Positions 34,095 to 34,235 of a stretch of 64,000 nucleotides of DNA are shown piece by piece. Location: the NCBI GenBank assembly GCA_016720545.1, contig JADKKK010000003.1:409516-473515 (forward strand), written 5' to 3'. Origin of the DNA: Myxococcales bacterium. Lineage in GTDB: Bacteria; Myxococcota_A; Polyangia; Polyangiales; Polyangiaceae. Position 1 is the first letter of the stretch, and every line of letters starts with the position of its first letter. The translations under genes and the position numbers were made by a program. The notes under the pieces were generated by a model, which was not told where the DNA came from, searched no databases, and saw only the letters and a program-made list of their open reading frames with translations.

Positions 34095-34235
34095 CGAGGG
34101 CGCGACGACGAGGTTTGCGAGGACATTCGTGCTCTACCCCTGAGCTACGACCCCGTAGAGTGGAGTCGGCGGGATTCGAACCCGCGACAGCGACATTGGT
34201 AATGTGTAGTCCTCACGGCATTCGCCGCGCTCTCG
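34095..34235 (-). ncRNA. Y-RNA-like ncRNA with circularly permuted tRNA-Ala-like module
   Basis: On the minus strand the order is: terminal-stem 5' strand CGAGAGCGCGGCGA, GUGAGGAC with bulge, T-arm GCGGG-UUCGAAU-CCCGC, acceptor 3' strand CGACUCC, loop ACUCUAC, acceptor 5' strand GGGGUCG (G3.U70), UA, D-arm GCUC-AGGGGUA-GAGC, GUCCUC, then terminal-stem 3' strand UCGUCGCGCCCUCG (13/14 bp with the 5' strand). It lies between the TROVE and MVP genes. Confidence 0.6.

What the first reader, a model, noticed from the sequence alone, without database searches (positions are those of the whole stretch)
34095..34235. Circularly permuted tRNA-Ala mimic flanked by a long bulged stem (bacterial Y-RNA architecture)
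Read 5'->3' on the minus strand, the order is T-arm (GCGGG-UUCGAAU-CCCGC), acceptor 3' strand (CGACUCC), 7-nt loop, acceptor 5' strand (GGGGUCG, giving G3.U70), then D-arm (GCUC-AGGGGUA-GAGC). This is a tRNA opened at the anticodon and closed at the acceptor, the organisation reported for the tRNA-like domain of bacterial Y RNAs. The flanks form a 14-bp terminal helix (13/14 pairs) plus a GAGGAC/GUCCUC helix with a 5-nt bulge, like a Ro-binding stem. The acceptor, D-arm and T-arm are near-copies of the neighbouring tRNA-Ala gene, implying it arose by duplication and permutation.
Basis: seen in the sequence. Interest (0 to 1): 0.85.

Follow-up and report, generated by a model that had tools for sequence, protein, structure and literature searches.

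The report
Bacterial Y RNA (YrlA) beside Ro60
This is a bacterial Y RNA of the known YrlA family, a small RNA that docks onto the Ro60 protein encoded just upstream and carries a rearranged tRNA look-alike; this copy and many relatives also carry the marks that normally tell a cell to load alanine onto a tRNA.

Summary
Window 34095-34235 (minus strand) is a YrlA-type Y RNA, 176 nt downstream of a Ro60 ortholog (rsr, 34411-36000) on the same strand.

- **Family match:** Rfam YrlA matches end to end at 68.3 bits, 0.7 below its gathering score because of a 13-nt hairpin. A model built from relatives scores 130 bits.
- **Conservation:** 59 of 80 rsr loci from at least 5 phyla carry homologs on the rsr strand. 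Pairing is 95% against 36-48% in slid controls, and 26 of 35 pairs show compensatory changes.

Two details need correcting.

- **Opening point:** The RNA keeps a hairpin that behaves like an anticodon arm. The tRNA body is interrupted in the anticodon stem (nt 28/29), not at the loop.
- **Origin:** The tRNA-Ala likeness is inherited within the family, not copied from the neighbouring gene.

Two features are not discussed in the YrlA papers read here.

- **Alanine identity marks:** G3·U70 is the commonest 3:70 state (25/83), usually with A73. Nine copies encode NCCA. This suggests RNase P nicking, a CCA tail and possible alanylation, as partly shown for M. smegmatis YrlA.
- **tRNA arrays:** rsr-YrlA sits inside large tRNA gene arrays in many relatives.

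Verdict: new member of a known kind.

The parts
34095..34235 (-). Whole YrlA-type Y RNA (141 nt as modelled; true ends not mapped)
   Evidence: Rfam RF02553 matches 34099-34228 at 68.3 bits, E 2.5e-15. My own covariance model R1 matches 34095-34235 at 130.2 bits and gives the only hit in the window.
34222..34235 (-). Terminal helix P1, 5' strand. It pairs with 34095-34108.
   Evidence: 13 of 14 pairs in the sequence. Six of the nine modelled pairs show compensatory changes in 46 homologs.
34095..34108 (-). Terminal helix P1, 3' strand
34219..34226 (-). GGCGAAUG, the GNCGAAN0-1G motif that Chen et al. 2014 propose as the Rsr/Ro60 contact
   Evidence: Regex scan. CGAAU is invariant in 46 homologs. 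Motif definition from PMC4201824.
34209..34216 (-). Helix P2, 5' strand (GUGAGGAC). It pairs with 34117-34124.
   Evidence: Seven of eight pairs show compensatory changes, and one G·U is conserved in 35 of 46.
34117..34124 (-). Helix P2, 3' strand (GUCCUCGC)
34206..34209 (-). CUAC, the conserved YUAY of YrlA RNAs
   Evidence: Nearly invariant ACUACA in the alignment. YUAY is described in PMC4201824.
34193..34205 (-). Hairpin ACA-UUACCAA-UGU. This is the 'V' stem-loop of Chen et al. Here it is read as the lower anticodon stem (29-31/39-41) plus a 7-nt anticodon-like loop.
   Evidence: It appears as a 13-nt insertion relative to the Rfam model. In a fixed-register alignment of 44 homologs 80% of cells pair against 29-52% slid, and the covariation score is 0.747 against at most 0.21. 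The loop signature is Y32 in 44/47, U33 in 37/47, R37 in 36/47.
34191..34192 (-). CG (tRNA positions 42-43). It pairs with the CG at 34128-34129 (positions 27-28).
   Evidence: The two long-range pairs covary: CG 25, GC 9, UA 3, AU 1 for one, and GC 26, CG 12 for the other.
34128..34129 (-). CG (tRNA positions 27-28), after A26 at 34130
34186..34190 (-). 5-nt variable loop CUGUC. C48 can pair with G15 (Levitt pair).
   Evidence: Sequence. The family consensus is AGGUC/UGGUC.
34169..34185 (-). T-arm GCGGG-UUCGAAU-CCCGC
   Evidence: 99.6% paired, and four of five pairs show compensatory changes.
34148..34168 (-). Acceptor-like stem-loop: CGACUCC (66-72), loop ACUCUAC, GGGGUCG (1-7). It has 7 bp with G1-C72, G2-C71 and G3·U70, and A at the discriminator position. 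The predicted RNase P site lies between 34155 and 34154.
   Evidence: All seven pairs covary, with 96.6% paired. The precedent is M. smegmatis YrlA.
34131..34147 (-). U8-A9 and the D-arm GCUC-AGGGGUA-GAGC
   Evidence: The D stem is invariant in all 46 homologs. It is part of the Rfam YrlA consensus.
34411..36000 (-). rsr, the Ro60 ortholog (529 aa, TROVE + Ro60 vWA domains) and presumed protein partner
   Evidence: Pfam PF25045 at 2.3e-14 and PF05731 at 5.7e-07. About 8000 homologs, many named 60 kDa SS-A/Ro ribonucleoprotein.

Best explanation
The region encodes a YrlA-family Y RNA, the non-coding RNA partner of the Ro60 ortholog Rsr encoded 176 nt upstream on the same strand.

Shown here:
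- The RNA has a long bipartite stem (P1 and P2) carrying the family's GNCGAAN0-1G motif.
- It has a tRNA-like module arranged in permuted order: lower anticodon stem with a 7-nt loop, variable loop, T-arm, a 7-bp acceptor stem closed by a loop, D-arm, and the upper two anticodon-stem pairs.
- All helices except the invariant D stem are supported by compensatory changes across phyla.

Inferred from work on Deinococcus, Salmonella and Mycobacterium:
- The stem docks on the Rsr ring.
- The L-shaped tRNA mimic acts as a gate or tether that recruits an effector. That effector is polynucleotide phosphorylase in the studied species. The partner of the tRNA-like module itself is still unknown.

Inferred from anatomy:
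- The RNA is probably made from the same transcript as rsr and its flanking tRNAs, and is trimmed by tRNA-processing enzymes.
- It shares the 7-bp acceptor stem with M. smegmatis YrlA. It is therefore likely to be nicked by RNase P before G1 (between 34155 and 34154).
- The new 3' end (…CGACUCC-A-C) would then be completed to ACCA. The two halves would stay together on Rsr.
For: - Rfam YrlA matches end to end, E 2.5e-15.
- The Rsr gene is adjacent on the same strand.
- 59 of 80 rsr loci carry a hit of at least 60 bits on the rsr strand. In 56 it lies downstream, at a median of 310 nt.
- 95.1% of cells pair, 26 of 35 pairs are compensatory, and slid controls reach only 36-48%.
- RNAalifold predicts the same helices independently.
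- The GGCGAAUG and CUAC motifs and the tRNA tertiary-contact nucleotides (U8, A14, G15:C48, G18 G19, UUCGA) are present.
- 60 of 83 homologs have a fully paired 7-bp acceptor stem.
- M. smegmatis YrlA, whose acceptor stem is also 7 bp, is cut by RNase P, gains CA to form a CCA end, and both halves co-purify with Rsr (PMC4201824).
- Nine homologs encode NCCA directly after the stem, against 9 of 495 at other loop offsets.
Against: - The Rfam score is 0.7 bits below the curated gathering score. The default scan therefore misses it.
- There is no expression, end-mapping or binding data for this organism.
- No promoter-like or terminator-like sites were found around it.
- The thermodynamic MFE does not form the D-arm. 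The cloverleaf-type model is 6.3 kcal/mol less stable than the MFE.
- Published work states that most YrlAs are poor RNase P substrates, so cleavage here rests on analogy with a single species.
Confidence: 0.93

Rival explanations
1. It is the junction of two adjacent tRNA genes or a decayed tRNA pseudogene. The T-arm and acceptor strand of one tRNA would be followed by the acceptor strand and D-arm of the next, and the pair would score by accident as YrlA. Chen et al. 2014 explicitly warned about this artefact.
For: rsr in relatives sits inside dense tRNA arrays. The window has tRNAs upstream and a decayed tRNA-like element 30 nt upstream of the RNA. Partial model hits covering positions 46-108 do occur at tRNA-tRNA junctions in other loci and in phage Mx1.
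Against: ARAGORN and the Rfam tRNA model call no tRNA overlapping 34095-34235. There is no partner for a first-tRNA acceptor 5' strand upstream, and none for a second-tRNA 3' strand downstream. The two acceptor strands pair with each other and covary at all 7 positions. The flanks form P1 and P2 with the Ro-binding motif, and these also covary. The whole 141-nt unit is conserved across at least 5 phyla.
Confidence: 0.02
2. It is the tRNA-like domain of a two-piece, circularly permuted tmRNA gene.
For: The Rfam tmRNA_permuted model aligns to T-arm, acceptor 3' strand, loop and acceptor 5' strand at 28.8 bits, E 9e-4. The acceptor stem carries G3·U70 like tmRNA.
Against: The score is far below the gathering score of 47, and only 60 of 213 model positions align. 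There is no tag reading frame and no pseudoknots. The RNA has a full D-arm, which tmRNA lacks. The window already encodes a standard one-piece tmRNA at 12718-13076, 165.5 bits. The YrlA model fits end to end.
Confidence: 0.01
3. It is a YrlA, but it works mainly as a nicked, CCA-tailed, alanine-charged tRNA mimic held on Rsr, rather than as a closed tether. AlaRS would charge it because AlaRS reads G3·U70 in the acceptor stem and ignores the anticodon.
For: G3·U70 is the commonest state at 3:70 (25 of 83), while G·U occurs 2-8 times at each other acceptor position. Of those 25, 21 have A at the discriminator position and 20 have G1-C72 plus G2-C71. They fall into 14 different stem sequences from 5 phyla. 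In real tRNAs of the same loci, G3·U70 is found in 16 of 20 tRNA-Ala and only 5 of 510 others. NCCA is encoded after the stem in 9 copies. M. smegmatis YrlA is cleaved and CCA-tailed in vivo, and its authors raised possible aminoacylation.
Against: 70% of homologs lack G3·U70, so it cannot be required for the family's core function. The counts are not corrected for shared ancestry. The window's loop is ACUCUAC, not ACCA. No charging has been shown for any Y RNA. Chen et al. consider aminoacylation unlikely to be general.
Confidence: 0.2

Closest known systems
YrlA of Mycobacterium smegmatis (Chen et al. 2014, PMC4201824)
   Same: It is encoded next to rsr and carries the GNCGAAN0-1G stem. It has a permuted tRNA-like domain with a 7-bp acceptor stem. 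A hairpin lies upstream of the T-arm; the published primer sequence fits a 7-nt loop CUUCUAA followed by UGGUC. One C is encoded after the discriminator position, as here. Experimentally it is cut by RNase P, CA is added to give a CCA end, and both halves are bound by Rsr.
   Different: It lies upstream of rsr rather than downstream, and it is accompanied by a second Y RNA, YrlB. I could not obtain its acceptor sequence, so whether it has G3·U70 is unknown. The window copy has no experimental data.
YrlA of Salmonella Typhimurium (Rfam RF02553; crystal structure, Wang et al. 2018, bioRxiv 10.1101/312249)
   Same: It has the same family motifs and the same nearly invariant D and T arms. It folds into an L-shaped tRNA mimic with a closed acceptor loop, and it binds Rsr.
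   Different: The Salmonella RNA has a 6-bp acceptor stem and is not cut by RNase P. It lacks an anticodon loop, and its anticodon-like stem runs straight into the Ro-binding stem. It lies in an rsr-yrlBA-rtcBA operon under RtcR control. The window RNA has a 7-bp stem, an extra hairpin with an anticodon-like loop, and tRNA genes as neighbours instead of rtcBA.
Two-piece (permuted) tmRNA tRNA-like domain
   Same: The gene order is permuted: T-arm, acceptor 3' strand, intervening loop, acceptor 5' strand. It has a G3·U70 acceptor stem. In some YrlA relatives CCA is encoded before the intervening segment.
   Different: The window RNA has no message part and no pseudoknots, and there is no SmpB logic. 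It has a full D-arm and a Ro-binding stem. The tmRNA_permuted model is not met.
Yrn1 of Deinococcus radiodurans and metazoan Y RNAs
   Same: These are Ro60-bound stem-loop RNAs that gate or tether Ro60. Yrn1 tethers Rsr to PNPase.
   Different: The tRNA-like parts are oriented differently in Yrn1 and are absent from metazoan Y RNAs. Chen et al. consider Yrn1 an independent lineage.
TROVE-domain genes inside archaeal tRNA gene clusters (Morgado and Vicente 2019, PMC6333295)
   Same: A Ro60-type gene is embedded in dense tRNA arrays, in 20 of 29 archaeal clusters. Here 22 of 80 bacterial rsr loci carry at least 10 same-strand tRNAs.
   Different: That report is archaeal and does not mention Y RNAs. 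The window itself keeps only three tRNAs plus one decayed tRNA-like element.

Membership tests
YrlA (Rfam RF02553, Y RNA-like) | Score at or above the curated gathering score (69 bits) of the Rfam covariance model | tested here: inconclusive
   68.3 bits, full model 1-114, E 2.5e-15 in a 1-kb search. The hit is not listed at the gathering threshold. The 0.7-bit shortfall comes from a 13-nt insertion, the hairpin. A model built from relatives that have the hairpin gives 130.2 bits.
YrlA (criteria of Chen et al. 2014) | Located within 4 kb of a Ro60 ortholog | tested here: met
   176 nt downstream of rsr (34411-36000) on the same strand.
YrlA (criteria of Chen et al. 2014) | GNCGAAN0-1G motif near the 5' end, within a stem | tested here: met
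   GGCGAAUG at 34226-34219, straddling P1 and the internal loop.
YrlA (criteria of Chen et al. 2014) | Nearly invariant T and D stem-loops separated by an acceptor-like stem-loop, preceded by YUAY | tested here: met
   T-arm, 7-bp acceptor-like stem-loop, D-arm and CUAC are all present and conserved or covarying in 46 homologs.
YrlA (criteria of Chen et al. 2014) | Does not overlap tandem tRNA genes | tested here: met
   No ARAGORN or Rfam tRNA call overlaps 34095-34235.
YrlA / Y RNA | The transcript exists and is bound by Rsr | not testable with these tools
   Needs RNA-seq or Northern blots and Rsr immunoprecipitation.
YrlA | [quoted passage not shown] | not testable with these tools
   Only the sequence determinants can be seen: the UUCGA T-loop, the D-loop with GG, and the 7-bp acceptor stem.
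Permuted tmRNA (Rfam RF04321) | Gathering score of 47 bits, with a tag reading frame and pseudoknots | tested here: not met
   28.8 bits over model positions 36-95 only. A standard tmRNA is present at 12718-13076.
Canonical tRNA (Rfam RF00005) | Contiguous cloverleaf with free 5' and 3' ends at the acceptor stem | tested here: not met
   No tRNA hit at this site. After computational de-permutation ARAGORN calls it a tRNA (46 of 51 homologs). However, 76% of controls with positions 29-41 shuffled are also called, so this test has little discriminating power.
AlaRS substrate (tRNA-Ala identity set) | G3·U70 in a 7-bp acceptor helix, with A73 and G2-C71 contributing, and a free CCA 3' end | tested here: inconclusive
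   G1-C72, G2-C71, G3·U70 and A at the discriminator position are present. The stem is closed by a loop and no CCA is encoded. [quoted passage not shown]

The most novel reading that the evidence does not exclude
In this YrlA subfamily the Y RNA would be a complete tRNA with its connectivity rearranged. It keeps an anticodon-like arm. Its acceptor stem would be opened by RNase P and tailed with CCA. Because it carries the alanine identity set (G3·U70, A73, G1-C72, G2-C71), it would be charged by AlaRS while held on the Ro60 ring. Ro60 would then carry an aminoacylated tRNA mimic, possibly linked to surveillance or use of the unusual tRNA arrays in which rsr-YrlA is embedded in many Myxococcota and Acidobacteriota.
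Probability: 0.15. Interest if true: 0.75.

Novelty: new member of a known kind. Interest (0 to 1): 0.4.

Why it matters
The identification itself is routine for specialists. It adds a Polyangiaceae member to a family described in 2014, one that automatic Rfam annotation misses by 0.7 bits.

The comparative results are what could matter.

- **Alanine identity marks.** A large cross-phylum subfamily of YrlAs has a 7-bp acceptor stem, the alanine identity pair G3·U70 with A73, and sometimes an encoded CCA. This makes the old open question, what the tRNA-like half of bacterial Y RNAs does, directly testable through RNase P, CCA-adding and AlaRS assays.
- **Anticodon-like hairpin.** The 'V' hairpin behaves like an anticodon arm. 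This changes how the mimic should be modelled on tRNA-binding proteins.
- **tRNA arrays.** rsr-YrlA is embedded in dense arrays of often non-canonical tRNAs. This points to a functional link between Ro60 and tRNA arrays, and it fits the proposed origin of YrlA from dimeric tRNA transcripts.

Tried and rejected
- **Default Rfam scan.** The gathering-threshold scan of the window found only tmRNA and one tRNA. The YrlA hit appears only with the E-value threshold.
- **De-permutation test.** I cut each YrlA at 28/29 and rejoined it at the acceptor, then ran ARAGORN. 46 of 51 were called tRNA, but 76% of controls with positions 29-41 shuffled were called too. I do not count this as evidence for the anticodon arm.
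- **Single-sequence MFE.** It does not form the D-arm or the hairpin in the proposed register. The cloverleaf-type model is -55.6 against -61.9 kcal/mol for the MFE. I rely on covariation instead.
- **Promoter and terminator scans.** Scans of 33300-36700 found nothing. This is uninformative in a high-GC myxobacterium.
- **Local duplication from tRNA-Ala.** In a ranking against 537 tRNAs, tRNA-Ala is the best isotype on average. The window's own tRNA-Ala (score 17) ties with one from another genome and falls below an acidobacterial tRNA-Met (18). I rejected this as evidence of a local copy.
- **Vault-like operon.** The major vault protein gene is next to rsr only in the window and its closest relative L001, out of 80 rsr loci. 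Four other bacterial vault-protein loci have no TROVE neighbour. I rejected this as a conserved linkage.
- **Second Y RNA.** No other R1 hit exists in the window, and there is no other GNCGAAN0-1G in a stem context between rsr and the vault gene.
- **Myxococcus phage Mx1.** It encodes an Rsr 48.6% identical to the window's. R1 found no full YrlA within 7 kb, only a tRNA-Ala/tRNA-like junction.
- **Supplementary alignments of Chen et al. 2014.** They are not held in the library, so I could not check the acceptor stem of M. smegmatis YrlA.

Full report
**What is there.**
- A 13-of-14-bp terminal helix (34235-34222 with 34108-34095).
- An asymmetric internal loop.
- A second helix, GUGAGGAC/GUCCUCGC (34216-34209 with 34124-34117).
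- A T-arm (34185-34169).
- A 7-bp acceptor-like stem closed by the loop ACUCUAC (34168-34148), with G·U at the third pair.
- U-A followed by a D-arm (34147-34131).

The single sequence folds better than all 200 dinucleotide shuffles, z = -3.2.

**Family assignment.** A default Rfam scan of the window reports only a tmRNA and one tRNA. With the E-value threshold, the YrlA model (RF02553) aligns end to end to 34099-34228 at 68.3 bits, E = 2.5e-15. That is 0.7 bits under its gathering score, and the cost comes from a 13-nt insertion, the hairpin.

The ORF immediately upstream on the same strand (34411-36000) is a Ro60 ortholog with TROVE and Ro60-vWA domains. Its homologs are widely named 60 kDa SS-A/Ro ribonucleoprotein, and the nearest belong to Polyangiaceae.

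The RNA also carries the two sequence motifs Chen et al. 2014 use to define YrlA. These are GNCGAAN0-1G (GGCGAAUG, 34226-34219) and YUAY (CUAC, 34209-34206).

**Relatives and covariation.** I fetched 80 rsr loci from reference genomes.
- A plain nhmmer search with the window RNA finds homologs on the rsr strand just downstream of rsr in most of them.
- I built a covariance model from 46 of these. It finds one hit in the window, 34095-34235 at 130 bits, and 214 hits overall.
- 59 of 80 loci have a hit of at least 60 bits. In 56 it lies downstream, at a median of 310 nt from rsr, and loci often carry 2-4 copies.
- On the MAFFT alignment, which was not fitted to any structure, 95.1% of cells pair against 36-48% in slid registers. 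26 of 35 pairs show changes on both sides, and no shuffle out of 500 reaches the observed values.
- The D stem is invariant, so it is uninformative for covariation.
- RNAalifold independently predicts P1, P2, the T-arm, the acceptor-like stem and the D-arm.

This rules out a decayed pseudogene. Together with the absence of any tRNA call at the site, it also rules out the tandem-tRNA junction artefact that Chen et al. warned about.

A permuted tmRNA is excluded as well. That model reaches only 28.8 bits over a quarter of its length, and a normal tmRNA sits at 12718-13076.

**The hairpin.** Chen et al. noted a less conserved stem-loop 'V' upstream of the T-arm and equated it with a variable arm. 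In this subfamily it has a regular form.
- Three base pairs and a 7-nt loop.
- Two nucleotides (CG in the window) that pair with the two nucleotides following N26 after the D-arm.
- A 5-nt loop of the class-I variable-loop type (AGGUC; CUGUC here).

I tested this on a fixed-register, ungapped alignment of 44 distinct homologs. The five pairs 27-31/39-43 are 80% paired against 29-52% when slid. The covariation score is 0.747 against at most 0.21.

The loop has the anticodon-loop signature: pyrimidine-32 in 44/47, U33 in 37/47, purine-37 in 36/47, and A or C at position 38 in 44/47. The three middle positions vary freely.

My reading is that the tRNA body is complete. It is interrupted in the 5' strand of the anticodon stem, between nt 28 and 29, where the Ro-binding stem leaves. 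This is an inference about homology. The secondary structure is the same three-way junction under either name, and which helix stacks under the D stem is unknown. An ARAGORN test on de-permuted sequences was not discriminating.

**The alanine likeness.** The window's acceptor-like stem has G1-C72, G2-C71 and G3·U70, with A at the discriminator position. I examined 83 homologs of at least 80 bits.
- 60 have all seven pairs.
- G·U is the commonest state at 3:70, in 25 copies. It occurs only 2-8 times at each other position.
- Of those 25, 21 have A next to the stem and 20 have G1-C72 plus G2-C71.
- They comprise 14 different stem sequences from Myxococcota, Verrucomicrobiota, Planctomycetota, Acidobacteriota and Alphaproteobacteria. 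The wobble is therefore kept while its neighbours change.
- Nine copies encode NCCA directly after the stem (ACCA or UCCA), against 9 CCA in 495 other loop offsets.

In real tRNAs from the same loci, G3·U70 marks 16 of 20 tRNA-Ala and 5 of 510 others. These counts are not corrected for shared ancestry.

The two YrlA papers I searched contain no mention of alanine, alanyl or wobble.

The relevant precedent is M. smegmatis YrlA, whose acceptor stem is also 7 bp. It is cut by RNase P, its 5' half gains CA to make a CCA end, and both halves stay bound to Rsr. The window encodes A-C after the stem, so the same CA addition would complete ACCA.

**Origin claim.** Over the acceptor, D and T modules the window YrlA and the neighbouring tRNA-Ala (36272-36343) agree at 41 of 49 positions by my count. 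The same modules are nearly identical in YrlAs of distant phyla, for example L040 of Verrucomicrobiota at nhmmer E 2e-16.

In a ranking against 537 tRNAs, the window's own tRNA-Ala ties with that of another genome and sits below an acidobacterial tRNA-Met. The likeness is a family trait, not evidence for a recent local duplication. Sim and Wolin's dimeric-tRNA origin model fits the context described next.

**Context.** In many Myxococcota and Acidobacteriota relatives, rsr-YrlA lies inside dense tRNA arrays.
- 22 of 80 loci have at least 10 tRNAs, and some have up to 33 in 17.5 kb.
- Nearly all of these tRNAs are on the rsr strand.
- In some loci a tRNA abuts the YrlA 3' end, for example L003 and L004.

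The window keeps three tRNAs upstream (His, Ala, Arg; 36094-36453). Only tRNA-Ala passes the Rfam tRNA threshold. It also keeps a decayed tRNA-like element between rsr and YrlA.

A TROVE gene in 20 of 29 archaeal tRNA clusters has been reported. My searches found no paper linking bacterial rsr or Y RNAs to tRNA arrays. No promoter-like or terminator-like site was found. Co-transcription with rsr and processing by tRNA enzymes is therefore inferred, not shown.

**Mechanism.**
- Shown: sequence, structure, conservation, and linkage to rsr.
- Taken from established work on the family: the stem with GNCGAAN0-1G binds the Rsr ring. The RNA gates or tethers Rsr to an effector such as PNPase. The tRNA-like module folds into an L-shape and is recognised by tRNA enzymes. 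Its own partner is unknown.
- Inferred here: RNase P nicking and CCA completion (moderately likely) and alanylation (speculative).

**Verdict.** Interest is moderate. It rests on the subfamily-wide alanine identity marks, the anticodon-like hairpin and the tRNA-array context rather than on the identification itself.

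Noticed in passing
window 30576-33440 (-): A 954-aa homolog of the eukaryotic major vault protein (MVP_shoulder 3e-18, Vault_3, Vault_4) lies about 650 nt downstream of the Y RNA on the same strand. A TROVE protein, a small RNA and a vault protein are therefore adjacent, reminiscent of vault particles. The adjacency is found only here and in the closest relative L001 among 80 rsr loci. Four other bacterial MVP loci have no TROVE neighbour.
   Followed up: partly
L002-L004, L009-L011, L022, L027, L028, L037, L041, L045, L046, L048, L051, L053, L058, L061, L063, L066, L067, L077: rsr and its Y RNAs sit inside dense tRNA arrays of 10-33 tRNAs per locus of at most 17.6 kb, nearly all on the rsr strand, in Myxococcota and Acidobacteriota. 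A TROVE gene in archaeal tRNA clusters has been reported (PMC6333295). I found no paper on the bacterial linkage or on a Y RNA connection.
   Followed up: partly
window 36094-36453 (-): Three tRNA genes (His-GUG, Ala-UGC, Arg-ACG) lie just upstream of rsr, and two look non-canonical. tRNA-His has a 6-bp D stem and scores best, below threshold, against the tRNA-Sec model. tRNA-Arg is not found by any Rfam tRNA model at E of 1 or less. None encodes CCA.
   Followed up: partly
window 34263-34350 (-), CTAG run 34298-34321: A tRNA-like element lies between rsr and the Y RNA, and its anticodon loop is replaced by a palindromic CTAG repeat (CTAGCAGCTAGCTAGCTAGCTAGC). In L001 the orthologous 70-nt element is intact, and ARAGORN calls it tRNA-Thr(CGU), although with a poor D-arm and a mismatched anticodon stem.
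   Followed up: partly
window 34238-34263 (-): A perfect 11-bp GC-rich hairpin (CGUCGCCCGGG-CUCG-CCCGGGCGACG) lies immediately 5' of the Y RNA with no U tract. It is conserved with one mismatch in L001. It may be a processing or stability element.
   Followed up: no
window about 33750-34080 (-): About 330 nt directly downstream of the Y RNA are absent from the otherwise collinear relative L001. The two sequences share GCUCGUGUCUAUUCU and then diverge.
   Followed up: no
L025:9982-10127, L078:10215-10353, L065:9828-9975, L076:7478-7620, L043:3030-3173, L021:10255-10395, L030:10217-10344, L049:10046-10188, L056:2038-2180: These YrlA homologs encode ACCA or UCCA immediately after the 7-bp acceptor-like stem, as a tRNA gene with an encoded CCA end would.
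   Followed up: yes
L085 (Myxococcus phage Mx1, OR576727.2) 7001-8650 and 74-149: Phage Mx1 encodes an Rsr 48.6% identical to the window's, among scattered tRNA genes and a peptidyl-tRNA hydrolase. My model finds no full YrlA within 7 kb. It does hit the 3' half of a tRNA-Ala followed directly by a tRNA-like 5' half, a dimeric-tRNA arrangement.
   Followed up: partly
L086 (Mycobacterium phage Catera, NC_008207.1) 4621-4772: An unannotated YrlA-like RNA (52 bits) lies about 150 nt upstream of the phage Ro-like gene. It also has the hairpin with a 7-nt loop and the covarying 27-28/42-43 pairs.
   Followed up: partly
window 57640-57717 (-): ARAGORN calls a 78-nt tRNA-Gly(GCC) here, but the Rfam scan at gathering threshold lists no tRNA at this site. 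It may be a false positive or another non-canonical tRNA.
   Followed up: no
many loci, e.g. L025, L026, L031, L038, L078, L079: Most relatives carry several tandem Y-RNA-like genes after rsr. There are up to four strong hits plus weaker, shorter ones that may be YrlB-like. The window has a single copy.
   Followed up: partly
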